Source: Promethearchaeota archaeon (GTDB taxonomy: Archaea > Asgardarchaeota > Lokiarchaeia > Sigyniarchaeales > SOKP01). From it: DNA of 64,000 nucleotides. The translations under genes and the position numbers were made by a program. Every line of letters starts with the position of its first letter. The first letter of the stretch is position 1. Under the pieces are notes generated by a model that saw only the letters and a program-made list of their open reading frames with translations, had not been told where the DNA came from and made no database searches. The stretch spans positions 224,001 to 288,000 of the forward strand of contig JAEOUA010000011.1 in assembly GCA_016839555.1 (NCBI GenBank). The letters run 5' to 3'. Positions 47,890 to 63,642 of the stretch are shown piece after piece.

Positions 47890-48149
47890 CTTCTATTTCT
47901 CCATTCTCCTTATTATTATTAATATATTTAAGAAAAAAATATCATTCTTCTATATAATAAAAAAAAATTAATTATATAAACTTAATTTAAAGTTAGTGAA
48001 CTCTACTATTTAAAATTATATTATCTTAATTTAAAAAACTACTTTAGTCCATTTTTTTAGTCCAGTATTTTTATATTTAAAATAAATTTAATTAAAATAA
48101 TTTCTATTCTAATAGTAATAAAAAGAATAAAACGAATCATTTAGTAATC

Positions 48150-49349
48150 ATGTCCAGTTTTGATTCAAAATTATATCAGTTCGCGGTGAAAGAAGCAAAC
48201 GAAGCCGTTGCATATGATGGAAAAGGGCAATATCGGCAAGCCATAAACAAATATCAAAGAGCTGCTGAAAGTTTAATCCAATTTATTAAATATAATAACA
48301 ATCAAATTATGATTAAAAAATGTAAAAAACAAATAGAAGAATATCTCGACCGTGCAAAACTTTTAAAATCTCATCTCAATGGGGCAAGATCAATAAAATC
48401 AGCTACTGATAGAGATATCAAAGAAGCTGGTGGAGAAGGAGAAATATCCGACGAGGAACGAGAAATATTGGATATGATTAGTGGAACTATCATAACAGAA
48501 TCGCCCAACGTGAAATGGTCTGATATTGCGGGACTAAAAAGTAGTAAACAAGTTCTAAGGGAAGCCATCGTATTACCCATTATGAAACCCAAATTATTTA
48601 CAGGAGCACGAAAGCCTTGGTCGGGAGTTTTATTATTTGGACCACCGGGATGTGGAAAAACATTATTAGCTAAAGCAGCCGCCTCAGAATGTAAGGCGAC
48701 TTTCTTTAGTGCATCTTCTGCAGATTTATTAAGTAAATGGCTAGGAGAAAGTGAAAAATTAGTTAGCGCTTTATTTAAAATCGGTCGTTTAAGAGCTCCG
48801 AGTTTAATTTTTATTGATGAAATAGATTCTCTTGCCACAAAAAGAGGAGAAGGCTCGGAAAGTGGAGGTGAACGTAGAGTAAAAACCCAACTTCTTAGTG
48901 AAATTCAAGGAATGAAAACCACAGAGAATAAACCTATGTTAGTTTTGGGCGCTACAAATCGTCCATGGGACCTTGATAATGCGATGCTCAGCAGATTTCA
49001 GAAAAAAGTATATGTTCCTTTACCGGATCTTGAAGCAAGAGCGGAGATCTTTAAGATTCACACCAAGGGAGTAAACATGGCTTTAGATGATGAAGACTTT
49101 ATTGAATTAGGTGTTAGATCAGAGAGATATTCTGGGAGAGATATTTCCAATGTCTGTAGAGAGGTCATAATGATGCCCATTAGAGAATTAGATGCTTCAG
49201 GGATGTTAGAACATCCTGAGCAAGAGGTTAAGGTTAGAGATATTACACTTGATGATTTTAAAAAAACTCTAAAAAAAGTGAAACCTATGATGGACAACAA
49301 AGATTTGGCAAGATACGAAGATTGGGCACAAAAATACGGGGAATATTAA
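48150..49349 (+). CDS. vps4: Vps4 AAA+ ATPase (MIT + AAA)
   Basis: MIT domain (AV..D....AI..Y...EYLDRA), PNVKWSDIAGL, GPPGCGKT, SKWLGESEK, IDEID, GATNRPW. Confidence 0.93.
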   Translation: MSSFDSKLYQFAVKEANEAVAYDGKGQYRQAINKYQRAAESLIQFIKYNNNQIMIKKCKKQIEEYLDRAKLLKSHLNGARSIKSATDRDIKEAGGEGEISDEEREILDMISGTIITESPNVKWSDIAGLKSSKQVLREAIVLPIMKPKLFTGARKPWSGVLLFGPPGCGKTLLAKAAASECKATFFSASSADLLSKWLGESEKLVSALFKIGRLRAPSLIFIDEIDSLATKRGEGSESGGERRVKTQLLSEIQGMKTTENKPMLVLGATNRPWDLDNAMLSRFQKKVYVPLPDLEARAEIFKIHTKGVNMALDDEDFIELGVRSERYSGRDISNVCREVIMMPIRELDASGMLEHPEQEVKVRDITLDDFKKTLKKVKPMMDNKDLARYEDWAQKYGEY

Positions 49350-49375
49350 TATAAACAAAATGACGAGGATTAAAG

Positions 49376-50296
49376 ATGGAAAAACAAAGAGATGAAGTAA
49401 AAGAAATTTCAAAAGAGCTTAAAGAAAAAGCTGATAAAGAATTAGAAAGACTCAGAAGAGAGTTATATCGTTTAAGAAAACTAAAAGAGCAAAAAGAAAA
49501 AGAAAAAAAAAAAAAGAAAAAGAAAACCGCTACCGAAGAATTAACTAAAGAATCTGCTTCATCTGTTTCCGAAAAACCAAAGAATATTAGCGGAGTAAAA
49601 GAAATTGAAGAATCATTTGAAGAGATTGATTCTTTATTAAGTCAAGAATTAGAAAAAGAGAATCACAAAACTTATGAAAAAAATGCGAATTATATTGAAA
49701 CCCAATTACAAAAATTAGAACAAGAAATAATTGGAGAAACGGGTCTCATTGAAGAGGAACTTTCGCCTTATGAAAAATTATTAGATGAATATCCTTGGTT
49801 GGAACAACCTCGATATGAATATATGTTTCATATCCCGAATAAAACAAAAAATCCAAATGATTTCGAATCCTGGGTCAATGAATGGAGTAAAATTTTATTT
49901 GATTATGCCAAATATGCGATTTTACATATCCTTTATTTGAGGCAGTTATACACAGAAGCCCCATTTTCTAAATTTGAGAATCGAAAGCAAGCAATCAAGG
50001 AAATTAGTAATTGGTTGGTAAAGCAAGATTTAGCAAGGTGGCTTTCAAAGAAAAAGGAAAAATTAAGGGTGTATTGGAAAACTTTGGATTTAATGGCCGA
50101 AGAAATTTATGACTGGGCTTATGATAGCGGGAAATTAGAGCCAATACTTATTTATGAAATTAGGGAAGCCAAAAAGGAATTTAATGGTCTTCCAAAAGAC
50201 GAATTTGAAAAAATATTTGAAAAACTTTCAGAACAAAATAGAGCAGAAATAATAAAAATAAAAGATCGGATTGCTTTAAAGATCCTTCTCGAATAA
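49376..50296 (+). CDS. vps25: ESCRT-II Vps25 with long N-terminal coiled-coil/Lys-rich extension
   Basis: W..EWSKILFDY, ARW....RVYWK...IYDWA..G....IYEI match Vps25 winged helices; downstream of vps4. Confidence 0.8.
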   Translation: MEKQRDEVKEISKELKEKADKELERLRRELYRLRKLKEQKEKEKKKKKKKTATEELTKESASSVSEKPKNISGVKEIEESFEEIDSLLSQELEKENHKTYEKNANYIETQLQKLEQEIIGETGLIEEELSPYEKLLDEYPWLEQPRYEYMFHIPNKTKNPNDFESWVNEWSKILFDYAKYAILHILYLRQLYTEAPFSKFENRKQAIKEISNWLVKQDLARWLSKKKEKLRVYWKTLDLMAEEIYDWAYDSGKLEPILIYEIREAKKEFNGLPKDEFEKIFEKLSEQNRAEIIKIKDRIALKILLE

Positions 50297-50617
50297 TGGA
50301 AATTTCTTTTCCATAAACTTAAGAATTTTTTCCCTTTTATAATGATTACAGAATGCTGAATTACAATCAAAGGGGTGATGACATTCGTTAATATGCCCGA
50401 ATTCGCAGAACATACACGAAAATATTTCATCGTCAAATAATTCTCTTTCATCTCTGGGACAAAAGGCGTGACCATATTGAAGGGTGATCATCCTTCTGAG
50501 ATTTCTGAGTTTTATTTTATCGTAAGCGGATTTCTCTTTCTTCTCTTCTAAGCGTTTGACTGCTTTAATGATGGTTATAATTGCTTCTGCGTGGTGATTG
50601 CTTATTTTTTGAGCCAT
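50276..50617 (-). CDS. Cys/His-rich hypothetical protein overlapping the left att site
   Basis: CPRD..CMFC..GH..ECH....C....CNH. Confidence 0.7.
   Translation of the reverse strand: MAQKISNHHAEAIITIIKAVKRLEEKKEKSAYDKIKLRNLRRMITLQYGHAFCPRDERELFDDEIFSCMFCEFGHINECHHPFDCNSAFCNHYKREKILKFMEKKFPLFEKDL
50277..50296 (+). repeat. Left attachment-site-like repeat (current 3' end of vps25)
   Basis: taaagatccttctcgaataa = K-I-L-L-E-stop. Confidence 0.8.
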
Positions 50618-50620
50618 TGT

Positions 50621-50815
50621 TTAGATCAGTCCCCGTTCTTTGAGTGGATTTTTACGGTGGCATTCATAACATTCGTCATAATCGGGTTCAATATCTCCGT
50701 AGCCACAATAAGGGCAGTGCAACACTCCATCCATTACTGCGGTTTTCAACATATCGAGGAGTCCTTTTTGCGTTATTTCTCTTTTTACAAAATTTTTATT
50801 CATTTTTGGTTTCAT
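50621..50815 (-). CDS. Small double-CxxC zinc-ribbon protein
   Basis: CPYC...EPD...CYEC...NPL. Confidence 0.72.
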   Translation of the reverse strand: MKPKMNKNFVKREITQKGLLDMLKTAVMDGVLHCPYCGYGDIEPDYDECYECHRKNPLKERGLI

Positions 50816-50867
50816 CTCTTTTTTGATTTTTAAGGTTTTTTATTGGTTTATTTGGTGTTTGAAAAAA

Positions 50868-51149
50868 TTAGAATTTGCCCCATAAATGCCGATATTTATC
50901 GTTTTCGTCTTTACTGCGGGGGGCGTATTTTTCGGCGTGTTTCTGGGCGATGTAAAATATTGAGTTTCTGGTGTGTCGTGCCTTAAAAAAGCATTCTCTA
51001 TCGCAAAACGTGAAACCAAAGGGATCGATGAAAAAAGATTTCTCTATCTGGATCTGCTTTGAACAATAACAGCAATAATAAGTTTTTGTTGTGTGTTTGT
51101 TTCGGGGTAAGTAAAATAAGTTAATCTTTTCTAACTTTTCGTCAAACAT
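50868..51149 (-). CDS. TRASH/FCS-type zinc-finger small protein
   Basis: CCYC...FCDREC. Confidence 0.68.
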   Translation of the reverse strand: MFDEKLEKINLFYLPRNKHTTKTYYCCYCSKQIQIEKSFFIDPFGFTFCDRECFFKARHTRNSIFYIAQKHAEKYAPRSKDENDKYRHLWGKF

Positions 51150-51171
51150 TATTACATAAATGAGGCAATCC

Positions 51172-51201
51172 TTTTTAAATCATAATAGGGTAATGATTTA
51201 G
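51172..51201 (-). promoter_or_regulatory. Shared promoter motif copy A
   Basis: Coding strand ctaaatc-attacc-CTATT-atg-ATTTAAAAAG; TATA ~22 nt before the ATG at 51149. Confidence 0.55.
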
Positions 51202-51221
51202 AATAATTGAACTTAATCTCA

Positions 51222-51282
51222 TAATCTATGAGCATTTCAAATATTGTTTTATAATAAAATGGAGTTTTCTACTCATAGATTA
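51222..51282. repeat. 11-bp perfect inverted repeat, 39-nt spacer
   Basis: taatctatgag / ctcatagatta. Confidence 0.7.
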
Positions 51283-51643
51283 GAATAAAGAATATTTTGA
51301 ATAAAATCTCTCCTGCTATATACAATTTCTTAATCATTCTCATCAATAGAATTGGAGAAGATACAAAATAAATAAAAAACTAGTAGTTCTTTTTCAGGTA
51401 AAAGCTAAAAATTTCAATCTTCATCCGATCCTTACCAAAAAATATATTTAAATTTCTTTACCTGAGCAAAATAAAAATCTCTCGTTAATATCCCAAAAAA
51501 GAATTTTGGTGTTTTAATTCTGTGTGGTAAAATTCAATAATATCTTAACAATGTTAATATTGATCTTAACTTATAAAAAAAAAGTAAAAATAGGAAAAAA
51601 CAAAAAAATGTAAGTATAAATAGGAAATTTTTGGATCTTTAAC

Positions 51644-51868
51644 CTAATTTCCCAAAAAAATACGATTCAATTCCACCTCGAAATTAATACCATTTAATCT
51701 CTTAAGCATTGTTTTAAGTGTTTTAAATTTTTTAATTGCTTCTGCTGTTGTTTTACTGCTTGTGTCACATAAATGAAAAATAGTTTGGTCGTCATCTGGG
51801 TGTTCTATTAAATATTTCGTTAAGGTAAAAATTTTTTCTATTAGCGAATTTATTTGATCTTTATTCAT
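51644..51868 (-). CDS. Hypothetical protein
   Basis: 74-aa ORF with upstream promoter motif. Confidence 0.6.
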   Translation of the reverse strand: MNKDQINSLIEKIFTLTKYLIEHPDDDQTIFHLCDTSSKTTAEAIKKFKTLKTMLKRLNGINFEVELNRIFLGN

Positions 51869-51916
51869 TTTATTTGATTAGATTTTTGTTTATTATGTAT
51901 AAACATACAATATTCA

Positions 51917-51947
51917 TTTAAATAATGAAATAGCGTGGTGGATTATT
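51917..51947 (-). promoter_or_regulatory. Shared promoter motif copy C
   Basis: Coding strand aataatc-caccacg-CTATT-tcat-TATTTAAA. Confidence 0.55.
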
Positions 51948-52083
51948 ATAAATATATCCGATCTTTAACTTTATAGATATTTCAAATCGTCTTGTGAGGG
52001 GAATAGAATCCATTTTTTAATAGTTTAGTAAAATAAAGAAAAAAAAAATAGAAAAAAAAAGAAAATATAAGAGTTTAAAATGG

Positions 52084-52428
52084 TTAGAATTTGCTATATA
52101 TCACCTTTCCCGTTAATCTGTCAAAAATCTTTCTGCATGTTGGACAAATAAGATATTCTCCGTTGTCAAATAACTTATTCTTGCATAAACAATCAAATTT
52201 GGTTTCCTTAAGGTTTGATAAATCCATCTTCATTTTCTTTTCTCCGATTATGGTATTTATAATCTCTTTAAACTTTGGAATCCATTTTAGCAATAAGATA
52301 TAGATGGATTCTTCTAAAGTTTGCTTTTCTAAGGGTTCTAAATTGTAGATAAAGGTATATCTCTCTTCTAAAAATTCTATTATTTCATCTGTCATAATGT
52401 CTAAGGTTTTATTAACCAGTGCGTTCAT
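52084..52428 (-). CDS. Hypothetical protein with C-terminal zinc ribbon
   Basis: CLC...CPTC; overlaps the upstream ORF. Confidence 0.6.
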   Translation of the reverse strand: MNALVNKTLDIMTDEIIEFLEERYTFIYNLEPLEKQTLEESIYILLLKWIPKFKEIINTIIGEKKMKMDLSNLKETKFDCLCKNKLFDNGEYLICPTCRKIFDRLTGKVIYSKF

Positions 52429-52735
52429 CTCCTTTTTGCTGTGAAATTTGGGGTTGATGAGAAAAGATATTCGGTTTATGGTTTTGGGCGATCCATTTTC
52501 CGATATCTTTAAAAAAATGGGTAATATCTCCGTTGTGAAAGTCGATTTTGACTAATTGCATTCTAATCTGCTGATGGATGGCGGGATCACAATGTTTAAT
52601 ATACTCAATGATGACCCCTAAAGGCATATAATGATATGTGTTATCATCGTCAATAAACTCGAAAGCAGTTGCTTCTGCGTCTATCTCCTTTTCTTCCAAT
52701 AGTCGTTCTAACCATTTGTTAAATTGAAGGCTCAT
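52412..52735 (-). CDS. Phage/plasmid-type hypothetical protein
   Basis: KWL...EEK.ID...LVKIDFHNGD..HFF pattern, recalled from mobile-element hypotheticals and not verified. Confidence 0.7.
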   Translation of the reverse strand: MSLQFNKWLERLLEEKEIDAEATAFEFIDDDNTYHYMPLGVIIEYIKHCDPAIHQQIRMQLVKIDFHNGDITHFFKDIGKWIAQNHKPNIFSHQPQISQQKGDERTG

Positions 52736-52756
52736 ATAATATAAATAGAGTTCTGG

Positions 52757-52786
52757 CTTATTAATGTGAATAGACTAATGATTTAG
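52757..52786 (-). promoter_or_regulatory. Shared promoter motif copy B
   Basis: Coding strand ctaaatc-attagt-CTATT-cac-ATTAATAAG; 16/18 identical to copy A; TATA ~21 nt before the ATG at 52735. Confidence 0.55.
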
Positions 52787-52995
52787 TTATTTTCATCTGG
52801 ATTTTTCTATTTTTGGAATAATTCGATTATAAGATATACATTGAAAGAAAAAAAATGAAAAAATTTTGAAATTCAATATTCTGTAATAGAAAATTTCACA
52901 TTAAAGGAATTATCTTTATAATAATTGAGGAGAATTGAGAATTTTTATTCTCATTTATTCTCATATTTTCAGCAAAAAGGAAAAAAAAGAGTGAA

Positions 52996-53220
52996 TTAAA
53001 ATATAGGTATTTTAGATTTAGGAAATTTTATAGAAGGGTTATCCATTCTGAAAGTTATATAATCATCTGGGTTACGAGTCAATGCGTTCTCAAAATCATA
53101 ATTCTTGATATTCTCGATCAGTTCTTTTGTTAAGAGTTCTTTGAGTTGTTCATTAGAATACTGAGAAGTGTTAATACCTAAATCTTGAGTGCTTAGTTTA
53201 ACTTTAAAGATTGCTTCCAT
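52996..53220 (-). CDS. Hypothetical protein
   Basis: 74-aa ORF with upstream promoter motif. Confidence 0.6.
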   Translation of the reverse strand: MEAIFKVKLSTQDLGINTSQYSNEQLKELLTKELIENIKNYDFENALTRNPDDYITFRMDNPSIKFPKSKIPIF

Positions 53221-53290
53221 TTTGGCTTCCTTTTATTTTTATATGAGGTATTAATAATAGTTTTTATTGAATTTATTTAAACAAAAATCC

Positions 53291-53321
53291 TTTAAATACT
53301 AAAATAGAGCATTAGATTATT
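53291..53321 (-). promoter_or_regulatory. Shared promoter motif copy D
   Basis: Coding strand aataatc-taatgct-CTATT-ttag-TATTTAAA; 24/31 identical to copy C. Confidence 0.55.
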
Positions 53322-53585
53322 GTAAAAATTAAAAAAAGAATTAAGTAAAAAAAGAAAAGAAAATTTCTGTTTCTAATATATATTTGGTCTCCCATCTTGC
53401 CATAGTCTTATAGTAAGAATAGGAATGATATATATCTTGTTTCTGGATCTCATAAACAGAATCGCTTAAAATAATTCTTATACCTTTATTCACCATTAAG
53501 AATTGAATTTTTTTTATTCTATTGCTGAGATTTTATATTCCTTATTTTAAAGAAAGTTTCATAAAACAGAGCAAAATCTTTTTTC

Positions 53586-53975
53586 TTATTGACTGATATA
53601 GTTTTGTAGGTTATAACTCTTCATAGCTCTCTTGATAGTTTGTATCAATGATTTGATTGTAAATGGTTTCTCTAAAAAAGAAAAAGCTCCGCAGGCGAAA
53701 GCCTCTCTCTTTATTCTTTTATCTCCTGTAATAAAAATAATTTTTATATTAGGATCTATTTGTAAAATTTCTTTTGAAGCTTCTATGCCGTTCTTTTTCG
53801 GTAAATGATGATCCATCAAAATCACTTGAGGTTTACTTTTGAATGCCTTAAACATTGAAATTGCTTCTTCTCCATCCTCTGCTATCCTTACTACTTCAAA
53901 ACCGTTTAATCTTAAAACTTTTTTATAAAAGGAATTTAAAGATTTGTCATCTTCGACAATAAATATTTTATCCAA
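53586..53975 (-). CDS. Stand-alone response regulator receiver (CheY-like)
   Basis: VEDD, ILMD phospho-Asp, ITG, EKPF. Confidence 0.92.
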   Translation of the reverse strand: MDKIFIVEDDKSLNSFYKKVLRLNGFEVVRIAEDGEEAISMFKAFKSKPQVILMDHHLPKKNGIEASKEILQIDPNIKIIFITGDKRIKREAFACGAFSFLEKPFTIKSLIQTIKRAMKSYNLQNYISQ

Positions 53976-54092
53976 TTTAATCCCTTAACCTAATTTTATA
54001 CCCAATAATTGTGTGAATTCTAATCAATCTCATATAAATTACAGATAGTTCGGTATTTAAATATTTCGATCCCATATAGAATGTAGATAAAA

Positions 54093-54305
54093 ATGAATGG
54101 GGAGATAGTTAAATATAGATTTTATAAGGATACATCACAAAGTCTTATTACAATTCCAAAAGCAATTGCTAGGTCATTAAATTGGAATGATAAAGATGAT
54201 ATTCATATGGTTATAACAACTATTGAAAATAAATTGGGTGTGTTTCTATTTAAAGACTCAGAGAAAAAGTCCGAGAAAAAGTACCTAAACCAAAAATTTC
54301 TCTAG
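54093..54305 (+). CDS. AbrB/MazE/SpoVT-like DNA-binding protein
   Basis: SLITIPKAIARSLNW..KD.I swapped-hairpin pattern. Confidence 0.75.
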   Translation: MNGEIVKYRFYKDTSQSLITIPKAIARSLNWNDKDDIHMVITTIENKLGVFLFKDSEKKSEKKYLNQKFL

Positions 54306-54703
54306 GAAAAATAAAGATAAAAAGAGAAAAAAAATAGATGTCCTCGCTTAATATCATAACTTATAAGAAAAGGTTAGAATAAGATCTACTCTATAGAGTT
54401 CTATAAAGTAATTCACTAAAAGACAAAAATCCAGGGATTTAAGCAAGGTTATCTATTTTTTTAACAAGACCTTACTTTTTTACTGATTCGTCGAATAATT
54501 ATAAATATGATTCCTATTTAAATTTAAGTATAAAAAAGCCATATATTCATAAAAATTAAGATTTCCTATAAGATAAATTATTTTAATGTAAATGTTTTCA
54601 AGAATCTCTGTGGAGTTGAAGCAGGAAAGAGATTGACACCATTATTTTAGATATATGAATCATTATATTAATTTCCATAAAATAGATGGGGTTATATGAA
54701 TCT

Positions 54704-54970
54704 TTATACTTTCCTAATGTCCACTTCAATGACATCTCCTGCGTTCAGATCTAATTTTTCAGCAACATAATATCGGATGGATACTCCTTTCGAACTCCCT
54801 ACCCAACGTACTTGGCGTGTCATAGTATGCGAGGGCTTATTTTCTACAGCCTTAAAGATTTCTATTTCTACGAGATCGCCGACATCGAGTTCTAATCCGT
54901 CAATAATATGTGATTGGATGATAAAACCCAATGTTCTGCCACTTTCAATAAGTAATACCGTATCTTTCAT
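54704..54970 (-). CDS. Tandem AbrB-like DNA-binding protein
   Basis: Internal duplication: GRTLGFII...LELDVGDLVEIEI / GSSKGVSI...LDLNAGDVIEVDI. Confidence 0.75.
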   Translation of the reverse strand: MKDTVLLIESGRTLGFIIQSHIIDGLELDVGDLVEIEIFKAVENKPSHTMTRQVRWVGSSKGVSIRYYVAEKLDLNAGDVIEVDIRKV

Positions 54971-55170
54971 GGGAATCTACATGTAAAAATTATTATTTTT
55001 TCAAAGTTCTACTTGTAATACTACCTAAAATCTCTACTATTATTTAAGATTTCACTTAATCATTTAATATTTTGATTAAATGTATTCAACTCCTTCCTTA
55101 GTTTCACTATAATAATCAGAGCTTTCATTATATCTTATTTATTTATCACAATTAATTCACCATATTAGAT

Positions 55171-55210
55171 TATGATATCATCATAAAGATTTAAATATGA
55201 TCTTATCATA
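55171..55210. promoter_or_regulatory. Two palindromic operator-like sites TATGAT-N3-ATCATA around a TATA box
   Basis: tatgat-atc-atcata (55171-55185) and tatgat-ctt-atcata (55196-55210), 25 bp apart, with tttaaata between them and overlapping the second. Confidence 0.7.
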
Positions 55211-55268
55211 ATATTATCTTGTATTATCTCCATAAAATATCAGGTAAATAAAAAATAAAAACATTAGA

Positions 55269-55622
55269 ATGAGTACTTCAGACCATCCATCAAAGCTAAC
55301 ACCTAAACCTAAGAAAATATCCTTAATTTATTCACAATTTATCGAAATTCTCAGTGAGAGCTTGGAAGATAATTTTGATGTGTGGTTTGTTTGGGTTACT
55401 AAACTCCTTATACAGCTTTTACACTCAGATACACTAAAAGGGGAGTATCTGACCAACTTTTTACGGATTTTTACTTCCTTAACACATAGGAAAAAATTGA
55501 TTTCTCCAATTCCAGAAGGGAAAGACATTCACACATTATCAGCTCAAAAAAAAGCTCACATAAAAGAAATTCTTGAGGATTTAATATTTTTATCTGAATA
55601 TAAAGACAAAGAAGAGGTATAA
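55269..55622 (+). CDS. Hypothetical protein, first gene of putative tfb operon
   Basis: 117-aa ORF. Confidence 0.6.
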   Translation: MSTSDHPSKLTPKPKKISLIYSQFIEILSESLEDNFDVWFVWVTKLLIQLLHSDTLKGEYLTNFLRIFTSLTHRKKLISPIPEGKDIHTLSAQKKAHIKEILEDLIFLSEYKDKEEV

Positions 55623-55680
55623 TAATATTCAAGATCCTCACCATAAAGTTAGGCAGGAAATTAATAGGATACGAAAGAGA

Positions 55681-56214
55681 TTGGATTTACCTCTCTCGAT
55701 TAACGAGCAGATCTATATTATATTTCAGGAAATCGAGAAATGTGCTATTCAGACAGATCCTCTGAAACTCATACCGCTCTTATTCCTTCTCTATTTAAAC
55801 ACAAATAATTACTTTCTAAGCTTGGATAAAATTGCCAAAATATCCTATATTTCCGTAAATGAGTGCTTATCCTTTACTGAGGATCTCCGAAGGTTTGAAT
55901 TTGACGAAAAACGATGCACGTTTCAAAATATTAAAACATTTAACCTTACGTTTTCGAAATTCCGCAAAAAATATGGAGTTTGTCCCGTATGTAATACTAA
56001 ATTAGATGAGGAATATTTGAGGCTCTACTATTTTGATAGATTGTATGACCGTCAGAAACTTAAGGAAAATCTCAACAATAGGTTGAGCCGGGAAAAATCC
56101 TTTCGATATGTATATGAGAGACGGATCACCCTCAAAATTCCCTGTATTATCTGCTTTCTGGAGTTATTACAGCAATTAAATTATAAAAATGTACCCATTG
56201 GAGTAAATCAATAA
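55681..56214 (+). CDS. Hypothetical protein with split CxxC...CxxC Zn site
   Basis: CPVC and PCIIC. Confidence 0.6.
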   Translation: MDLPLSINEQIYIIFQEIEKCAIQTDPLKLIPLLFLLYLNTNNYFLSLDKIAKISYISVNECLSFTEDLRRFEFDEKRCTFQNIKTFNLTFSKFRKKYGVCPVCNTKLDEEYLRLYYFDRLYDRQKLKENLNNRLSREKSFRYVYERRITLKIPCIICFLELLQQLNYKNVPIGVNQ

Positions 56215-56240
56215 AATAATAAAATAGGAGTGTATATAAT

Positions 56241-57545
56241 ATGATTGTTCAAGATTGTTTGTATAATAATAATAGTAATAATTTAGATGTATGTGACCTT
56301 AGCTGTGAGTTATGTCATTCCTCTGAAATTAGAGAAACCCAACAAGGGTATGTGTGTGCCGAGTGCGGGTGCGTTTTAGATCTTCCCATTTTAAAATATC
56401 ACGTGCCCTATACCCAAAAAAAGATCCATTATGAAGTATCTGTGGGAAATACCTTTCTTGGATTACAAAAAGAACGAAGATCCAATCGACACTCTCCCAA
56501 ACTGAAGCGATTACACAAACTTCAGTGTTCCCAATCATATCAAGATATGGTATATCATGATACAGAGATCGAAATTTGCCGGATTCTGGCAGGATTAGAT
56601 CTCCCCCACACCTTTAAAGATCCTATCTTCAAAACCTTTAAAGAACTTTGGGGTAATTATTCACAGAGAAGTCGGTTTCAAAGTATTGAGAAATTAATAC
56701 CTGTTCTTATCTATTATTTCTGCAAAAAGCAATACATATCCATAAATGAACATGAACTATTGGAAATCGCTAAGGTGAATAGAAAACAATATATTTATTA
56801 TAAATTGAAATTTCTTGCCCCTCCCTCTGCATATAAGAATGCTAATCGAAAAAAGCTTATAAAATCAAAATTGTTTAGGCTGGCAGTTGAGTTAGGTTTG
56901 GGAATGGATTTCTACCACGATGCAGTAAAGTTGTTAAATAAACTATATAAAGAGATTTGTTGCACGAAAGAGAGTGTGATCGCGGGACTTATCTCATCGA
57001 TTGTAGTATTATGTCGTTATAGAGAGGAAATAACTGTCAATTCCATCTGTAATTACTTCAATATAGCAATGAGTACCATTCAATCGCGGGTTAAACGGCA
57101 TTTTATAGAAAAATTTAAGGTCGTCGGATTCGAAAGCCTGGTAAAATCGGCTCATATCATCAAAACGACTATTTATAAGTTAGGGATCTTCGAAGAACCG
57201 TCCGGAGAACAAATCAATGAGCCATTCAAAGAGCTTTATGTTACCATAGAAACGAATGCTACTGAAGAATCAGAAGAAGGAGACTTCTTTTCCGAAACTC
57301 TTGATACCCCTAAAATAATTCAAGTGAAAGCAATCTATAGAAACTTACGCAAGAGATTTCCCAGACTCCAGAGATCCTATAATTGCTTCCTCTTTATTCT
57401 TCAAAATCGATTTGATTTACACCCCATCTTCATCTCTCTATTATTGCCAACCAATTCGATTATGCATATTCTCAAGCAAAATGGAAATAAAGCCATACTG
57501 AAAAGAATGACCAAATATTTATACCCTTCAAAAGGACCTCCATAA
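56241..57545 (+). CDS. Divergent TFB/TFIIB paralog with C-terminal extension
   Basis: Zn ribbon CELC...GYVCAECGCVL; two cyclin-like repeats (EICRILAGLDLP..; ..L.L....Y..A..L..; HTH-like TVNSICNYFNIAMSTIQSRV); AGGAG upstream. Confidence 0.75.
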   Translation: MIVQDCLYNNNSNNLDVCDLSCELCHSSEIRETQQGYVCAECGCVLDLPILKYHVPYTQKKIHYEVSVGNTFLGLQKERRSNRHSPKLKRLHKLQCSQSYQDMVYHDTEIEICRILAGLDLPHTFKDPIFKTFKELWGNYSQRSRFQSIEKLIPVLIYYFCKKQYISINEHELLEIAKVNRKQYIYYKLKFLAPPSAYKNANRKKLIKSKLFRLAVELGLGMDFYHDAVKLLNKLYKEICCTKESVIAGLISSIVVLCRYREEITVNSICNYFNIAMSTIQSRVKRHFIEKFKVVGFESLVKSAHIIKTTIYKLGIFEEPSGEQINEPFKELYVTIETNATEESEEGDFFSETLDTPKIIQVKAIYRNLRKRFPRLQRSYNCFLFILQNRFDLHPIFISLLLPTNSIMHILKQNGNKAILKRMTKYLYPSKGPP

Positions 57546-57564
57546 TACACTCATTTATCACAGT

Positions 57565-57713
57565 AATATTCCTTCATTGAAGGAGTATTCATCAAGATAA
57601 GAATTTCACCGAGATTTCTGGATTTTTGTCTAATAATCTTTTGTTTGATTGACGCAAAGAAAAGATTCGCTCTCATTCCTTTTTTGATCATCTCGGATGA
57701 TCCTTCTTATCTT
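57565..57713. other. Multi-stem structured non-coding segment downstream of the tfb-like gene
   Basis: aatattccttca/tgaaggagtatt; aagataagaa/ttcttatctt; ccgagat/atctcgg; aatctttt/aaaagatt. Confidence 0.6.
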
Positions 57714-58074
57714 TATCTTTTTCTCTTTTTCTTTTAAAAAATGATTTTATGTATCACTTATTTCTCTAATATAAGTCATTAAAGTGAAAAATTTTCCTGT
57801 TGGATTAGGATTTCTACTTATATTGTATTTTATTTCTTTTATCAGTGGTACAAATTTAAGTCTATAATTGTCAAGGGTTGGATTAAATTTACATTTCTTG
57901 TATTAAAAATTAAATGTCTTTTAATAAAATCGGTATAAACATTTATAAGTCAATTTAATTATACTATTAATAATAGCAGTCGATTTATTTCTATTTATTT
58001 AAATTTTCTTAGAATTTGAGGGTTGAAAGATACATCGAAATGCAGGAGCTATACAAAGAAAATATAATTAAAAA

Positions 58075-58850
58075 ATGAAGATACCAAAACAGCTAAAAAA
58101 AAATAGAAATTTTAAATTTAACCAGAAAAATACTAAAACATATTTGAGATTGCTTAAAAGTGAGTTCAAAACTCATTTTAAAGAACTTATGGTTAGATTT
58201 AATGATAAAAGAAATATTAGGTTTATTTCGAAAAATGGCAAAAGTATTTTCCCATTTGATGAAAATCAAGCTTATAATGAGTATGATTTCAGAGTATTTT
58301 GGCATAAGAATCAGATTGAAATAGTATATAATGATGAAATAATCGAAAAAAATCTTCTTAGAAAGTATAAACTCACCTTTTTGAAAAATCTATTTAGTCA
58401 AATAGCACATCACGAATATGCTCATACAAGACAATTCGAATCAATGTTCTATAAATATTCTCAATCTATTTATAATGAGATTTTCAATAAAGATTTAGAG
58501 ATTATTTCATCTGATGATATAAAGAGATGTGATATAAAATATAGATCTATTACACAAAAAATACAAAAATCTCTTAAAAATATTCATATACTATATATTG
58601 ACCATACTTTTATTGAGTTTTGGGCGAATTCAATTATATATGATGAAATAGACTCTAATCGTCCCGCAGAAAGGCTGATAGAAAGAAGAGACTTAATGGT
58701 TGATAAAGAATGTTTATACCCTGATCATATTTTAAATCCTGAAATAAGATATGGAAAGAGAATTTTAGACCTTTTGGAATTATCCCAAGAACATTTTATC
58801 TTTAAAGACTGGGAACCATTAGAAAATCTTTTCAAAAGATTGAATCGATT
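58075..58850 (+). pseudogene. HEXXH metallopeptidase-like gene, 3'-truncated (the 58075-59106 ORF reads through into foreign sequence)
   Basis: IAHHEYAH plus downstream EFWAN; after ~58845 base composition changes and the translation becomes out-of-frame-like. Confidence 0.6.
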
Positions 58851-58916
58851 CGTACGTTTCAACTCATCCCCTCGGATGCGCCCCCTCTTAAGTCTAACAT
58901 TACTTCTATTACTATT

Positions 58917-61900
58917 ATGTCATTCCAATTATTCGGCGAGTTCTCTTTCGATTCTTCAATCACATTATATCCCAACGAGTTCACTTACGACTCTTCGACG
59001 GGGAAAGTATCCATCAAACCCGCTGCTTTCGAACAGATTAGGGCGAGAACCAGCAATATGGAGTGGTCGAGCAATTCTCACTCTGAAGCGAATCTTCTCT
59101 ATATAATATCCCTTGAATCCGTGCGCTCCATTTATAGTACCGAGGACGATCTCTCGTTGTCGCAGGCAAAGCAAATAATGCTCATGCAAGGCATTCAGAT
59201 GGGCATCGTCGATTATATGAACGAGTATGTCCAAGGATTTGCGAAGGCTCAGCTGGATTATCAGACCGGGTATAATTTAATCATAGCATCGGTTAAAATT
59301 GTGGCGACCATTATCGCGATAATTGCGACTAAAGGTGCCCTGGGCGGAATTGAAGCGCTTAAGCAAAGTTCAGCAGCTAGCGCTTCGGATGCGTCAGGAA
59401 GTGCTTCGGGTTCGGCTGCTGGTGGTTCGAGTTCGGCAGCTGCCGGCACAGGTGAAGCATATATTGGTCTTGATGGTATCCTCTATAATGAATTCGGGGT
59501 AGCTGTCGATGTTGCCGGCGGAATTGCCGTAGACTACGCTACCGAAACCGCCAAAGAAGTCATCAACACCTATTTGGAACAAAGCTTGGTGCAAATGTCA
59601 AATAGACTCGTACAATCCCTTTCTATTCAACAAATTTTGAAAATTGTGGTTCCATCTGTCGGTCAGTTGTCCGTTCAAGGGCTTTCAGAAGTTTCCCTTA
59701 CGCAAGTAATTACACAATCCATTGAGCTATCCATCGGACTCGACGGCAGCATCGTCGGACTCATCGGCGGCTATTTACTGACCGATATATTCGGCGAGAT
59801 AAGCAACCCGCAGCTCTATGTTCTCTCCCAGGAACTCGCCTCCATGCAAGAACAGCTCGCCTCTCCTACTAAATCGGCTCGGCTTACCCCGCAATTGGCA
59901 CAAGTCTTCTTTGAGCTTCGCCCCTATGGATTTGCGGGCGCCTCGGCACAAGAATTGCAGAAATTAACTCCAAGTGCGGTTGAAGTGGTTAATCAGGATG
60001 AAAAAGAGCGTCAGATGGCAGAAAATGCTCAAGACTATGCCGAGTTCATAGCGTGGTTGGAGATGGTGTTTGGCCTTATCAATATGACTATATGGGAATG
60101 GTATGAATTTTTAAATCGACCCTGGGATTATTCCATTTTCGATGAGATACGGGAGTTTAGACTGTGGGTAGAGGGGGGAATTTCCGATAATTATATTACG
60201 AACGAAGAGATTAAGAATAATCGCATTTATCAGAAATATCTGGAACTTTACCGTAGGAATAAGGAAGAATTTGCCCGAAGATTGGCTCGATACGATGAAT
60301 GGACAAAAGAGGCGGAAGTTTACTCCTTACGGAAGGCAATGAAAAATTATACAAAGCAAACCAGCAGATCCCCTTGTTTTCAATCAACAAATAAATTTAA
60401 AGGTAAATTTATTACATGGTTTCAAGAACATTATAACATACCATTCCCCCTTCACGATGAAGAGATACGGGAAAAGTTTTACAACATATATCCCGCCTTC
60501 ACTCGAATTCTTTTAGAGCATTTCGAAATCTATGACTCTTTTGAGAATGTTATGGACGACCCCCTTGATGTAGTGGAATGGGTAGAAAAATTAACGGGCA
60601 GGTTTAAGAAATACAACAATTCTGACTTAAAGCCCGCCCTATATAATGAACCTCGTGGTGGTCGTGATCTCTATAATATTGAAGGGGCGCCCTCTAGTAC
60701 ATCTTTTTATCCTTATGTTAAGATCTTCATTCGGGAAGCGTTCCGATTTGCGTATGAAAATGGAATGCGAAGGAGATTAACCCCACAAGAAGTGTCTCTT
60801 ATCCGTTCCTTGGCTCTGGATAAAACAATAACTACCTATCAAAAGATCGTCCGTGCCGTTCAAAAGGCCTCCAAGCCCGACGAGGGAAAGACCCTTGAAT
60901 TAGTCACAACACCCCGAGATTTCTTAAATTTCATGCTTCAAGCGGCAAATAATCCTGATTTACACCCTTCGCATGTTCGTGTGATAATTCGTTGGGTCGA
61001 GGGAGCGCAAGAGTATTCTCCACAAATTCGTAGAATTTATTTAAATCCTCACCGTAAATTGGACGGGTGGTATAAATCTACGGCTTTAACAGCAAAAAAT
61101 ATTAGAGAGATGGTAGAGCAATATGGATTTGAAATAGTATACATGACCGACGAGCAGATAAACAATGAGTTGAATAGAGTACGGAACGATCCGAAGAGGG
61201 GTGTTAATAACATTAGGTTAACCGTTCGATGTACAAGATGCCACACGGTTCAAACCAAATCGCTTTATAGTATACAGACATCTGCGCATTGTAGCTATTG
61301 TATGCCAAAGATTTATACCAATGAAGCGTATGCCCTCAAAGTATTAACCGAAATACTCTCGAAGCAGTCCAGCTCTTTCGACAGCTTTCTCAGGACCGAC
61401 CTTAAAGGAAACAAACTCCCCAAACTCCAAGCAACCCCTCTCTGGAGAAATCAGCATGTATATATCAAGGATCTGATCCACCCCCTTAAGAAAGGCGCGT
61501 GGATTCTCAATAAACATGGACAATGGGAATGGAATAAAAACTATTACCAATATGAAACGGATACGGATTACATAAAATTCTTCTGGAGCGTACATGTAGA
61601 TGGTGCAATATTTGTAAAGGTAAAACTAAAGAACTCCGACCAATTTGTCAAACAAGCAGACGGCACCGACATGGTATTCAAATTTCTATTAGAACGCCAG
61701 GGAGAGCAGCATCAAACCTCATGGAAGGGATTTATAGCGTGGCTCCGATTACATGGGGAAAACACCATCGCGGATATCGTAGAGCCCATTGGCAACATTG
61801 AAGATACACTTATCGTTCGGAGGTTAACACCTAAACAAAAGGACATACTTGATAAAGAGCATGAAAAATGGCTCAAGCAACTGCAACGAGATCGGGATAA

Positions 61901-62189
61901 AGTTAAGCTGTTTGAGTATCACCAGAAAGACGGGTTCTATCTGCTGGTGATGGACCATACCGTGAAGCCCGACCAAATGCTTCAGTTCCTCTGCGCTCAG
62001 ATTACCGAGATCGTTAATTTACATTTGATTGAGACCATAGAGAATATTCGGGGCGAAGATCTTGTATCTTTTGAGGAGATACGACAGATCCTAGAGGATA
62101 CCCTGATGCCTTACGGCAAATATATTCCTTGGTTAAAGCAGAGAAGAGTATGGGGAGATATAACGGATTATCTTAATAAAACGGGATAA
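58917..62189 (+). CDS. Probably 5'-truncated large membrane protein with C-terminal Zn ribbon and Vsr/DUF559-like endonuclease (polymorphic-toxin-like)
   Basis: Frame open back to 58806; TM plus Ala/Ser/Gly linker; CTRC...CSYC; NE..., VDG, ERQGEQH, QRDRDK motifs. Confidence 0.6.
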   Translation: MSFQLFGEFSFDSSITLYPNEFTYDSSTGKVSIKPAAFEQIRARTSNMEWSSNSHSEANLLYIISLESVRSIYSTEDDLSLSQAKQIMLMQGIQMGIVDYMNEYVQGFAKAQLDYQTGYNLIIASVKIVATIIAIIATKGALGGIEALKQSSAASASDASGSASGSAAGGSSSAAAGTGEAYIGLDGILYNEFGVAVDVAGGIAVDYATETAKEVINTYLEQSLVQMSNRLVQSLSIQQILKIVVPSVGQLSVQGLSEVSLTQVITQSIELSIGLDGSIVGLIGGYLLTDIFGEISNPQLYVLSQELASMQEQLASPTKSARLTPQLAQVFFELRPYGFAGASAQELQKLTPSAVEVVNQDEKERQMAENAQDYAEFIAWLEMVFGLINMTIWEWYEFLNRPWDYSIFDEIREFRLWVEGGISDNYITNEEIKNNRIYQKYLELYRRNKEEFARRLARYDEWTKEAEVYSLRKAMKNYTKQTSRSPCFQSTNKFKGKFITWFQEHYNIPFPLHDEEIREKFYNIYPAFTRILLEHFEIYDSFENVMDDPLDVVEWVEKLTGRFKKYNNSDLKPALYNEPRGGRDLYNIEGAPSSTSFYPYVKIFIREAFRFAYENGMRRRLTPQEVSLIRSLALDKTITTYQKIVRAVQKASKPDEGKTLELVTTPRDFLNFMLQAANNPDLHPSHVRVIIRWVEGAQEYSPQIRRIYLNPHRKLDGWYKSTALTAKNIREMVEQYGFEIVYMTDEQINNELNRVRNDPKRGVNNIRLTVRCTRCHTVQTKSLYSIQTSAHCSYCMPKIYTNEAYALKVLTEILSKQSSSFDSFLRTDLKGNKLPKLQATPLWRNQHVYIKDLIHPLKKGAWILNKHGQWEWNKNYYQYETDTDYIKFFWSVHVDGAIFVKVKLKNSDQFVKQADGTDMVFKFLLERQGEQHQTSWKGFIAWLRLHGENTIADIVEPIGNIEDTLIVRRLTPKQKDILDKEHEKWLKQLQRDRDKVKLFEYHQKDGFYLLVMDHTVKPDQMLQFLCAQITEIVNLHLIETIENIRGEDLVSFEEIRQILEDTLMPYGKYIPWLKQRRVWGDITDYLNKTG

Positions 62190-62378
62190 ACTCTGTGGAT
62201 TTTTTCTCGTTTACTTTTTATATTATTTTTGCAAAGAATATAATACGATCTAAAAGAACGAAATGATAATGAAAGATAAAAGAAAAAAATAAATATGAAG
62301 GTTGTTGTTATTTATATAATTACCAGCGCACCATTACAGTTTTATCAGTTTAAACCACTAAAAAAAGATTAATATAAA

Positions 62379-63371
62379 ATGGTTGTCGTATTTTATTGGG
62401 TTCAAAGCGAAGAAGAGCGGCTTGCCTTTTACGAATATTATTGGAACCCTCAAACGTATTTTTCTCATCATAATTCCATGATTTTGTTCGAACCCATTAC
62501 GCTAGATGATGGTAAGATTTTTGGGGAGAAAGACATACCCTCCGTGGTGCTGGAGTTTTCCGCGGGGTGGGATACAATTAAAGATATGATCAAAAAAAAC
62601 ATCGTGGTCGAAGAGCGTGTACTTTTATTCGATGACTTGAAGGATGAGGAGAGATATAATGAATTTATGATAAATTTAACGCAAAACCACAATGCATATA
62701 AAGGGTTTGATGCTGGTTCTTACGATATGATAAGATATCTCCATCGTCTTAACTATCGTTATATCGACGGCTCGATTCCTTCCCATGATTTAATAGAGTT
62801 GGAAAACTGGCTTATCTATTTACCCTCGAAGACGCTTCACGACGCAATCTTGGACGCCCTTTTTGAGGAGAACAAGCTTCAAAACTCATTTAGTTACCTA
62901 TTCATAAGGGATATATTGGAAACGAAAGATGGTTGCACTTTCGGTAAGGAAAACAAGCATACCTTGTTTATACACATCTTTTCCACCTTTCATAAGAACG
63001 CGGTTTACGAATTAATCGAAAAGGGCATCATAGAGAAACGACTGGCAATTCAACAGCGACACATCAAGGATTCTATGTTTCAAGATGCGCGAGATCGCGA
63101 TTTACGTAATATGACGCTTTTTTTGGTACTTCTAGACAAGGTAAGATTTAAGTATTATTTTTCCAAAAAACCTTATCGATTTGAAGACGGCTCCCGCCTA
63201 ACACTGGACAACTCCAACTTGTTTCAGAGAAAATTGGATTGGTGGGCGTCAAGGATGATAAAAGAAGAAGACTACTATTGTCCCGCGTGCAAGACAAAAG
63301 TTGAGCAGCGAACTATAAACTTTCGTGAGAAGGGGGAATTCTGTAATCTCTGTTGGGCTAAATTAACTTAA
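62379..63371 (+). CDS. Hypothetical protein with C-terminal zinc ribbon (candidate partner/immunity protein)
   Basis: CPAC...CNLC; same GC-richer composition as the upstream gene. Confidence 0.65.
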   Translation: MVVVFYWVQSEEERLAFYEYYWNPQTYFSHHNSMILFEPITLDDGKIFGEKDIPSVVLEFSAGWDTIKDMIKKNIVVEERVLLFDDLKDEERYNEFMINLTQNHNAYKGFDAGSYDMIRYLHRLNYRYIDGSIPSHDLIELENWLIYLPSKTLHDAILDALFEENKLQNSFSYLFIRDILETKDGCTFGKENKHTLFIHIFSTFHKNAVYELIEKGIIEKRLAIQQRHIKDSMFQDARDRDLRNMTLFLVLLDKVRFKYYFSKKPYRFEDGSRLTLDNSNLFQRKLDWWASRMIKEEDYYCPACKTKVEQRTINFREKGEFCNLCWAKLT

Positions 63372-63622
63372 AACTCATTTAAAAATGATTTTTTTTATTA
63401 CTCATACCTATTAGCTTGAAACTCTCAATTCTAAATTTTAATATTTTATCTTATATAAATTTACTTTCAGATCATCTAAATGATATTACTATTCTTTTTG
63501 ATCCCAAAGGTTAAAATTTCAAAAAATACCGAAGAAATATTTAACAAAGGAGACAGAATTAACTCCACAACAAATAAATGAAATAGCAATAGAATTGCTA
63601 CTGAAATGGGGAAAAAAAAAAA

Positions 63623-63642
63623 TAAAGATACTTCTTGAATAG
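63623..63642 (+). repeat. Right attachment-site-like repeat (displaced vps25 3' end)
   Basis: taaagatacttcttgaatag = K-I-L-L-E-stop; 17/20 identical to the left copy, mismatches at third codon positions. Confidence 0.8.

What the first reader, a model, noticed from the sequence alone, without database searches (positions are those of the whole stretch)
51172..57545. Candidate element-encoded alternative-TFB regulon: own TFB paralog plus a shared non-canonical motif at four promoters
Seen: four minus-strand units of small ORFs (starts 51149, 51868, 52735, 53220) are each preceded by AATC-N6/7-CTATT-N3-5-TATA box (A/B 16/18 identical, C/D 24/31). In A and B the TATA box is ~21-22 nt from the ATG, which fits leaderless transcripts. 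A weaker fifth copy (CTATC-tgta-ATTTATA, ~54031-54048) precedes the receiver gene. Established: TFB reads the purine-rich BRE just upstream of TATA through its second cyclin repeat. Inference: this pyrimidine-rich motif replaces the BRE and is read by the element's divergent TFB (56241-57545), like a phage-encoded sigma factor. An activator site is the alternative, and AT-rich DNA raises the chance-match rate.
Basis: partly seen in the sequence, partly recalled or inferred. Interest (0 to 1): 0.85.

Follow-up and report, generated by a model that had tools for sequence, protein, structure and literature searches.

The report
Shared promoter motif in integrated Asgard element
A 13-kb mobile element inserted next to the ESCRT genes of an Asgard archaeon has four small-gene promoters with one real, conserved upstream motif and also carries a copy of an unusual transcription factor B, but nothing yet shows that this factor reads the motif.

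Summary
Four co-oriented minus-strand promoters (ATGs 51149, 51868, 52735, 53220) carry AATC-N6/7-CTATT-N4-TATA.

- **Chance:** 4 of 12 island upstream regions carry the motif, against 5 of 2,296 host ones. No dyad reached 4 in any of 20,000 random or 2,284 consecutive sets of 12 host upstream regions.
- **Conservation:** The same layout precedes orthologous small genes in related elements of three other genomes from two genera, at only 34-60% protein identity.
- **Island:** The region is a 13.4-kb insertion (about 50277-63642) at the 3' end of the ESCRT-II (vps25) gene. It is missing at this site in four congeners.
- **TFB:** ORF 56241-57545 is a true but divergent TFB, with a Zn ribbon, two cyclin folds and an extra C-terminal domain. 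It belongs to a family whose host ortholog sits in conserved radA/helicase synteny. The island copy is a fast-evolving duplicate.

The inference that this TFB reads the motif is not supported. The motif is at background level around 20 family loci in relatives. AATC lies 15-16 bp upstream of the TATA box, beyond where a BRE lies. The promoter element that does travel with this TFB family is a different one. The likeliest reading is an element-specific upstream promoter site bound by a still unidentified factor. The TFB reading stays possible, at about 0.2.

The parts
50277..63642 (.). Integrated element (13.4 kb) inserted at the 3' end of the ESCRT-II (vps25) gene
   Evidence: In four congeners (G002, G004, G005, G006) the ESCRT-II gene is followed directly by the homolog of 63740-64465. 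An 18-bp imperfect direct repeat (15/18) at 50279-50296 and 63625-63642 encodes the same KILLE-stop gene end. No integrase was recognised.
51172..51198 (-). Motif copy, N6 type: AATC-N6-CTATT-N4-TATA, 22 nt before ATG 51149
   Evidence: Orthologous promoters of homologs of the 93-aa protein in G005, and in G020 (another genus), keep the layout. A homologous promoter at C3:~18470 drives an AAA/Orc-like gene.
51917..51944 (-). Motif copy, N7 type, 48 nt before ATG 51868
   Evidence: No homolog of the 74-aa ORF was found in the 60 family genomes searched.
52757..52783 (-). Motif copy, N6 type, 21 nt before ATG 52735
   Evidence: In two G005 orthologs the block -60..-1 is 80% and 65% identical, against 43% and 33% further upstream and 51% and 49% at codon third positions.
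53291..53318 (-). Motif copy, N7 type, 70 nt before ATG 53220
   Evidence: Near-identical paralogous copies lie at C1:142204 and C11:~18739. In the C11 copy AATC reads AATT.
50868..51149 (-). 93-aa Cys-rich small protein (unit with ATG 51149)
   Evidence: Homologs in G005 (59%), G004 and G020 (34-38%). No Pfam or PHROG family.
51644..51868 (-). 74-aa ORF (unit with ATG 51868)
   Evidence: ORF list. No family and no homolog found, so coding status is unproven.
52084..52735 (-). Two overlapping genes, 107 aa (52412-52735) and 114 aa (52084-52428, Zn ribbon)
   Evidence: The 107-aa protein matches phrog_6004 at E 3.5e-15. Homologs occur in G005, G019 and G010. The 114-aa protein is 63% identical in G005.
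52996..53220 (-). 74-aa ORF (unit with ATG 53220)
   Evidence: Three copies in this genome at 78-84% protein identity. None found in the 60 relatives searched.
53586..53975 (-). Stand-alone response-regulator receiver gene
   Evidence: Pfam PF00072, E 1.5e-23. The segment 53531-54462 is 92% identical to C4:211201-212136.
54093..54305 (+). AbrB/MazE-like small DNA-binding protein, a candidate regulator
   Evidence: Weak Pfam MazE_antitoxin match, E 0.0017, below cutoff. A second such ORF lies at 54704-54970 on the minus strand (E 0.005).
55088..55210 (+). Promoter region of the TFB operon. It holds the family-type element AACTCCTTCC (55088-55097) and two TATGAT-N3-ATCATA palindromes (55171-55185, 55196-55210) around TATA 55190-55197. 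It has no AATC/CTATT motif.
   Evidence: Sequence read. The same 10-mer follows the TATA box of the host TFB genes of this family at C11:104516 and C7:168597, and of orthologs in other genera.
55269..57545 (+). Three-gene unit: 117-aa ORF, 177-aa Zn-binding ORF, and the 434-aa divergent TFB (56241-57545)
   Evidence: PDB phmmer hit to Pyrococcus TFB core 1ais_B, E 2.5e-6, residues 111-294. The 42 best Foldseek hits are all TFIIB, TFB or Brf. Four Zn-ribbon Cys are conserved. The trio recurs at C1:138796-140994 and in G005.

Best explanation
The motif is an element-specific upstream promoter element. It sits in fixed phase just upstream of the TATA box of several independently transcribed small genes of an integrative element. 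A sequence-specific DNA-binding factor most likely occupies it and acts on TBP/TFB recruitment as an activator or a repressor, coordinating a block of small genes, many of them Zn-binding.

**Shown:**
- The insertion.
- The four sites and their rarity at host promoters.
- Conservation of the layout at orthologous genes in other elements.

**Inferred:**
- That these are active promoters.
- That the N6 sites give leaderless mRNAs.
- That a dedicated factor binds.

The factor is not identified. Candidates are the two AbrB-like proteins, the Zn-ribbon proteins, or a host factor. The island's TFB copy is a captured, fast-evolving duplicate of a host-conserved divergent TFB.
For: **Specificity**
- 4 of 12 island upstream regions carry the motif, against 5 of 2,296 host ones.
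- No dyad reached 4 in any random or consecutive set of 12 host upstream regions.

**Selection**
- The promoter block of the 107-aa gene is 80% and 65% identical in two G005 orthologs, while neutral sites are near 33-51%.
- Homologs of the 93-aa protein in G005 (59% identity) and G020:C143 (another genus, 37% protein identity) keep AATC-N6/7-CTxTx-N4-TATA about 22 nt before the ATG. A second G020 copy has GATC and G004 a looser spacing.
- Three co-oriented promoters within 1.6 kb of G005:C119 share the layout. A relaxed pattern has only 7 hits in the whole 3.74-Mb genome.

**Position**
- AATC ends 15-16 bp upstream of the TATA start. That is about -46 to -50 from the expected start site, where archaeal activator sites lie (established knowledge, for example Ptr2).

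**Candidate readers**
- The island holds other candidate DNA binders.
Against:
- The motif is not palindromic, which is unusual for the dimeric AbrB, ribbon-helix-helix or HTH regulators common in archaeal elements.
- The two subtypes are pairwise more alike than across subtypes, so part of the similarity is shared descent.
- CTATT is loosely kept in other elements (CTATA, CTCAG, CTCAC, CTTAT).
Confidence: 0.45

Rival explanations
1. The island TFB copy reads the motif and directs RNA polymerase to the element's promoters, as a phage sigma factor does. The helix-turn-helix of cyclin 2 would contact the ATT of CTATT in the BRE position. The extra C-terminal domain, which leaves cyclin 2 on the upstream side, would reach AATC.
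For: - The gene and the promoters lie in the same island.
- The unit with ATG 53220 and the TFB operon are neighbours in two islands of this genome.
- The full 117/177/TFB module was found only in G000 and G005, the two genomes with the best motif copies.
- Canonical TFBs of this genome have TEVTLRSRYK in the recognition helix. The family has MSTIQSQVKR and the island copies MSTIQSRVKR. The positions matching human TFIIB V283 and R286 (recalled, not checked here) are S and Q.
- No purine-rich BRE is present.
- The phasing with the TATA box is fixed.
- A precedent exists for a TFB paralog with its own regulon and promoter architecture: Sulfolobus TFB2 (bioRxiv 10.64898/2026.09.06.749720).
Against: - The motif is at background around 20 family loci in relatives: 3 hits in 322 kb.
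- It is absent at the C11:104606 and C7:167542 loci.
- Extended patterns sit at control level in 61 genomes.
- The G005 contig with the TFB module (L031, 15.5 kb) has no relaxed-pattern hit and one strict-pattern hit, and the motif-bearing contigs have no TFB.
- G020 and G004 keep a motif-like promoter before the 93-aa gene homolog without the full 177-aa module.
- The recognition helix is nearly invariant family-wide, but the motif is not.
- The element conserved at the TFB genes of this family is AACTCCTNCC downstream of the TATA box.
- The C-terminal domain model has low confidence, pLDDT 30-62.
Confidence: 0.2
2. There is no dedicated reader. The four promoters are descendants of one or two ancestral promoters, copied with their genes as modules shuffled between related elements. 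The host's general machinery recognises them, and the conserved bases simply make a good core promoter.
For: - The island is a mosaic of segments repeated elsewhere in the genome.
- The subtypes are pairwise similar (16/18 and 24/31).
- Modules are reshuffled between G000 and G005.
- The genome has 10 canonical TFB paralogs that could serve varied promoters.
Against: - The layout survives at protein identities of 34-38% across genera, where neutral DNA is randomised.
- What the two subtypes share is exactly the AATC, CTATT and TATA positions.
- Host upstream regions almost never have it (5 of 2,296) and show no positional CTATT enrichment.
Confidence: 0.2
3. Chance matches in AT-rich intergenic DNA.
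For: In a free search, 22.6% of 2.2-kb windows contain some equally improbable dyad. The claimed fifth copy is no better than chance.
Against: The promoter-anchored empirical test, conservation at orthologs and recurrence in G005:C119.
Confidence: 0.03

Closest known systems
TFB homologs encoded by Asgard viruses and mobile elements (WyrdV1; the 10H_0 and 7H_42-like elements; JinchiV1) and by some rudiviruses
   Same: A TFB gene carried by a mobile element of an Asgard archaeon, together with many small Zn-binding proteins (bioRxiv 10.1101/2021.07.29.453957; PMC13700489).
   Different: In the passages found by searching those two papers for TFB, TFIIB and promoter, no cognate promoter motif or regulon of the element TFB is described. 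Here the TFB is a recent, fast-evolving duplicate of a host-conserved divergent TFB with a C-terminal domain. No relative was found in IMG/VR by pattern scan.
Cellular TFB paralog regulons (Sulfolobus TFB2; Halobacterium TFBa-g)
   Same: Paralogous TFBs serve distinct promoter sets. TFB2 promoters differ in BRE-TATA spacing, and TFB2 feeds back on its own gene. The conserved promoter of this family's own genes suggests similar self-control.
   Different: Those are chromosomal regulators with ChIP evidence. Here no binding data exist, and the motif extends well beyond a BRE. The Halobacterium case is recalled from memory.
Phage-encoded sigma factors (T4 gp55, SPO1 gp28)
   Same: The concept of a mobile element bringing its own promoter-recognition subunit.
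   Different: Different protein family and domain of life. This is an analogy only, and the recognition step is not shown here.
Upstream activator sites and virus-specific promoter elements in archaea (M. jannaschii Ptr2 sites; SIRV1 promoter consensus with host Sta1)
   Same: A short element phased just upstream of BRE/TATA, or shared by a virus's promoters, and read by a separate DNA-binding protein that helps TBP/TFB recruitment (from memory, not checked here).

Membership tests
TFB/TFIIB family (for ORF 56241-57545) | N-terminal four-Cys Zn ribbon | tested here: met
   C22, C25, C39 and C42 are invariant in 19 family members. Pfam Zn_Ribbon_TF gives only E 0.017, below cutoff.
TFB/TFIIB family (for ORF 56241-57545) | Two cyclin-fold repeats | tested here: met
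   PDB 1ais_B and 1d3u_B at E 2.5e-6 over residues 111-294. The AlphaFold model has pLDDT 80-92 there. The 42 best Foldseek hits are all TFIIB, TFB or Brf, probability 1.00.
TFB/TFIIB family (for ORF 56241-57545) | Passes the curated Pfam TFIIB (PF00382) threshold | tested here: not met
   No Pfam family at E <= 0.01. Ten other genes of the genome pass. It is therefore a divergent member by fold, not by the curated profile.
TFB/TFIIB family (for ORF 56241-57545) | Canonical BRE-recognition helix in cyclin 2 | tested here: not met
   Canonical TEVTLRSRYK against MSTIQSRVKR. Specificity may be altered or lost.
TFB/TFIIB family (for ORF 56241-57545) | Binds TBP-DNA and recruits RNA polymerase | not testable with these tools
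   Needs biochemistry.
Alternative initiation-factor regulon (factor plus cognate promoter element) | The motif co-occurs with the factor's gene family across genomes | tested here: not met
   Background rate around 20 family loci. Control-level counts in 61 genomes. Co-presence at genome level only in G000 and G005.
Alternative initiation-factor regulon (factor plus cognate promoter element) | The motif lies within reach of the factor's DNA-reading surface | tested here: inconclusive
   The ATT of CTATT falls in the BRE zone, 5-7 bp from the TATA box. AATC is 15-16 bp away. Only the unmodelled C-terminal domain could reach it.
Integrative mobile element | Present or absent at a conserved chromosomal site | tested here: met
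   Four congeners lack the 13.4 kb between the ESCRT-II gene and the next gene.
Integrative mobile element | Flanking direct repeats (att) | tested here: met
   An 18-bp repeat, 15/18 identical, at 50279-50296 and 63625-63642. Both copies encode the gene's last five codons plus the stop.
Integrative mobile element | Integrase or recombinase gene | tested here: not met
   No Pfam or PHROG recombinase in any island ORF searched. It may be degraded or of an unknown type.
Archaeal core promoter | TATA box centred about 26-27 nt upstream of the start site | tested here: inconclusive
   The geometry fits leaderless starts at the two N6 sites. No TSS data exist.

The most novel reading that the evidence does not exclude
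A mobile element of an Asgard archaeon has captured and re-tuned a host TFB paralog. Its recognition helix, which carries a Q-to-R change, together with its divergent C-terminal domain, reads a bipartite upstream element (AATC plus CTATT) at the element's own promoters. This would be the first archaeal counterpart of a phage sigma-factor takeover, and an extended-BRE mode of promoter recognition by a TFIIB-like factor with a C-terminal extension, as in Brf1 or Rrn7.
Probability: 0.17. Interest if true: 0.85.

Novelty: new variant of a known kind. Interest (0 to 1): 0.5.

Why it matters
Promoter logic in Asgard archaea is essentially unmapped, and no function has been shown for the TFBs carried by their mobile elements. 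This locus offers a compact test case:
- a defined set of conserved, element-specific promoters;
- three TFB types in one genome: canonical, host divergent and element divergent;
- candidate small regulators.

If the TFB link held, it would show initiation-factor swapping by an archaeal mobile element. If it fails, the motif still defines a cis-element usable to find related elements and their early genes. The host-conserved divergent TFB with a C-terminal domain and its own deeply conserved promoter is also worth study, because TFIIB-family diversification (Brf1, Rrn7) is a eukaryotic hallmark.

Tried and rejected
- **Host BRE consensus, from TATA-like boxes:** Aligning 249 upstream regions on TATA-like boxes gave no signal in 79% A+T DNA.
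- **Host BRE consensus, from tRNA promoters:** Only 12 tRNAs were found, too few to use.
- **Free dyad enrichment in 2.2-kb windows:** CRISPR arrays, repeats and homopolymers dominate, and the test does not single out this motif. It was replaced by the promoter-anchored test.
- **IMG/VR scans:** No relatives were found for the TFB family or for the 107-aa protein.
- **Rfam on 50000-58200:** No match.
- **The 177-aa and 117-aa partners of the TFB:** No informative PDB, Pfam, PHROG or ESM-Atlas match.
- **Extended 28-30-nt patterns with 3 mismatches in 61 genomes:** Counts equal the reversed-pattern control. One look-alike in genus g8 precedes a 269-aa ORF that I judged host-like from its N-terminus alone, and I treat it as chance.
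- **Reading AATC as the BRE seen at this family's TFB genes (AAYCRTAAR abutting the TATA box):** Rejected, because the spacing differs by about 9-10 bp.
- **Complex prediction:** Not used. TFB-TBP is a textbook pair, and a pass would not bear on motif reading.

Full report
**Setting.** The window is C11:224001-288000 of a 3.74-Mb, 30% G+C genome in 12 contigs. Homolog names place it among Asgard archaea ('Promethearchaeati'). Window 47263-50296 holds host ESCRT genes: Snf7, Vps4 and ESCRT-II.

**The island.** Four congeners were compared by tblastx. In each, the ESCRT-II gene is followed directly by the homolog of window 63740-64465, so about 13.4 kb is extra here. The ends carry an 18-bp imperfect direct repeat (15/18) at 50279-50296 and 63625-63642. 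Both copies encode the last five codons (KILLE) and the stop of the ESCRT-II gene. This agrees with earlier first-stage notes on the same stretch. No integrase was recognised. Parts of the island recur elsewhere in the genome at 68-92% DNA identity, so it is a mosaic of shuffled modules.

**The motif.** Four sites on the minus strand read AATC-N6/7-CTATT-N4-A/T box. They fall into two subtypes.
- The N6 sites (ATG 51149 and 52735) are 16/18 identical to each other. Their boxes end 22 and 21 nt before the ATG, which is leaderless geometry.
- The N7 sites (ATG 51868 and 53220) are 24/31 identical to each other. Their boxes end 48 and 70 nt before the ATG.
- T-runs after each upstream stop codon mark separate transcription units.

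**Is it chance?**
- Genome-wide the full pattern has 56 hits on both strands, about one per 64 kb. Four of them lie in 2.1 kb here, on one strand.
- A free search is not decisive. In 22.6% of 2.2-kb windows some dyad is equally improbable.
- A promoter-anchored empirical test is decisive. Four of 12 island upstream regions share the dyad plus box. No dyad with at least two G/C reached four in 20,000 random or 2,284 consecutive sets of 12 host upstream regions. Only 5 of 2,296 host upstream regions carry the motif.
- CTATT shows no positional enrichment upstream of host genes.

**Conservation.**
- *The 107-aa gene.* It matches phrog_6004 and has two orthologs in G005 at 60% and 53% protein identity. 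Their -60..-1 blocks are 80% and 65% identical to the window, against 43% and 33% further upstream and 51% and 49% at codon third positions.
- *G005:C119.* Two further co-oriented small ORFs have the same layout (AAATC-N6-CT...-N4-box). A relaxed pattern gives three hits in 1.6 kb there, against seven in the whole G000 genome.
- *The 93-aa gene.* Its homologs in G005 (59%) and G020:C143 (37%, another genus) keep AATC-N6/7-CTxTx-N4-TATA about 22 nt before the ATG. A second G020 copy reads GATC, and the G004 homolog (33%) has a looser spacing.
- *A further homologous promoter.* One at C3:~18470 drives an AAA/Orc-like gene.

The motif is therefore a selected cis-element of a family of related elements. 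AATC and the phasing with the TATA box are its best-kept parts, and CTATT is looser.

**The TFB.** ORF 56241-57545 has no Pfam family above threshold. It does match the Pyrococcus TFB core at E 2.5e-6. Its model, with pLDDT 80-92 over the cyclin folds, retrieves only TFIIB, TFB or Brf chains among the best 42 hits.
- The genome has 10 canonical TFB genes and four of this divergent family.
- The family occurs in 18 of 24 genomes searched in the same taxonomic family.
- It has an almost invariant recognition helix (MSTIQSQVKR, against canonical TEVTLRSRYK) and an extra C-terminal domain ending in KGPP.
- One copy per genome lies in conserved synteny with radA and helicase genes. In G000 this is C11:104606.
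- The island copy and its C1 paralog form a long-branched sister group to the genus's host clade, with 100/99 support. They are captured, fast-evolving duplicates.
- In both islands the TFB follows a 117-aa and a 177-aa ORF. The full trio was found only in G000 and G005.

**Does the TFB read the motif?**

*For:*
- The gene and the promoters lie together, and the unit with ATG 53220 neighbours the TFB operon in two islands.
- The helix positions matching human TFIIB V283 and R286 (recalled, not checked here) are changed.
- No purine-rich BRE is present.
- The motif is phased with the TATA box.
- The C-terminal domain leaves cyclin 2 on the upstream side.

*Against:*
- The motif is at background in 322 kb around 20 family loci of relatives, and absent at two of the four own loci.
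- Extended patterns are at control level in 61 genomes.
- The contigs carrying motif-bearing promoters in G005, G020 and G004 have no such TFB, though most are short.
- AATC is out of BRE range.
- The promoters of the family's own genes share a different, deeply conserved architecture: AAYCRTAAR, then TTTAAAAGG, then AACTCCTNCC, then CTTAAG. Its 10-mer also lies upstream of the island's TFB operon at 55088-55097. That operon promoter has two TATGAT-N3-ATCATA palindromes and no AATC/CTATT motif.

I put the TFB reading at about 0.2. A separate DNA-binding factor acting beside TBP/TFB gets about 0.45. A promoter family served by general machinery gets about 0.2.

**Literature.** TFB genes on Asgard viruses and mobile elements are already described, without a reported target motif in the passages I searched. 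A TFB paralog with its own regulon and altered BRE-TATA spacing is described for Sulfolobus TFB2.

**Verdict.** The element and the TFB identity are confirmed. The causal link is untested and, on the co-occurrence evidence, not favoured.

Noticed in passing
G000 C11:104480-104560, C7:168560-168640; loci L026-L043 upstream of the TFB-family genes: The genes of the divergent TFB family share a deeply conserved promoter across genera. It reads a BRE-like AAYCRTAAR, then TTTAAAAGG, then AACTCCTNCC a few bases downstream of the TATA box, then CTTAAG near the expected start site. This suggests autoregulation or a dedicated regulator.
   Followed up: partly
window 56241-57545 and proteins P0001-P0019: A host-conserved TFB paralog of this archaeal family has a roughly 110-aa C-terminal domain ending in an almost invariant KGPP tail. 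This is a TFIIB core plus extension, the same overall layout as Brf1 and Rrn7. It is not covered by the Pfam TFIIB profile.
   Followed up: partly
whole genome G000: Ten canonical TFB genes plus four divergent ones sit in one 3.7-Mb Asgard genome, an unusually large set of initiation-factor paralogs.
   Followed up: no
window 51265-51445 and 51536-51665: The 446-bp spacer between the units with ATG 51868 and 51149 holds non-coding blocks repeated elsewhere: C3:18244-18502, C4:186860-187247, C1:142736-142783 and C12:277976-278062, at up to 96% identity. One block of about 60 nt is highly conserved. There is no Rfam match. It could be a small RNA or an origin-like region.
   Followed up: partly
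window 54314-54472: A roughly 150-bp multi-copy segment with a 24-nt inverted repeat (54328-54351 / 54439-54462, 88% complementary) recurs on at least five contigs at 72-89% identity. It looks like a MITE or a structured RNA.
   Followed up: no
window 55171-55210: Two perfect TATGAT-N3-ATCATA palindromes bracket and overlap the TATA box of the TFB operon, opposite an AbrB-like gene. This looks like an operator pair for a dimeric repressor.
   Followed up: partly
window 58000-62200: The right part of the island is G+C-richer (0.38-0.41, against 0.30). It holds overlapping 343-aa and 1090-aa ORFs with no Pfam or PHROG family, so it is probably of separate origin.
   Followed up: no
G000 C4:2000-14300; C6:1-2200; C1:308000-311300: These regions gave the strongest local dyad repetition in the genome. 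They are probably CRISPR arrays or tandem repeats.
   Followed up: no
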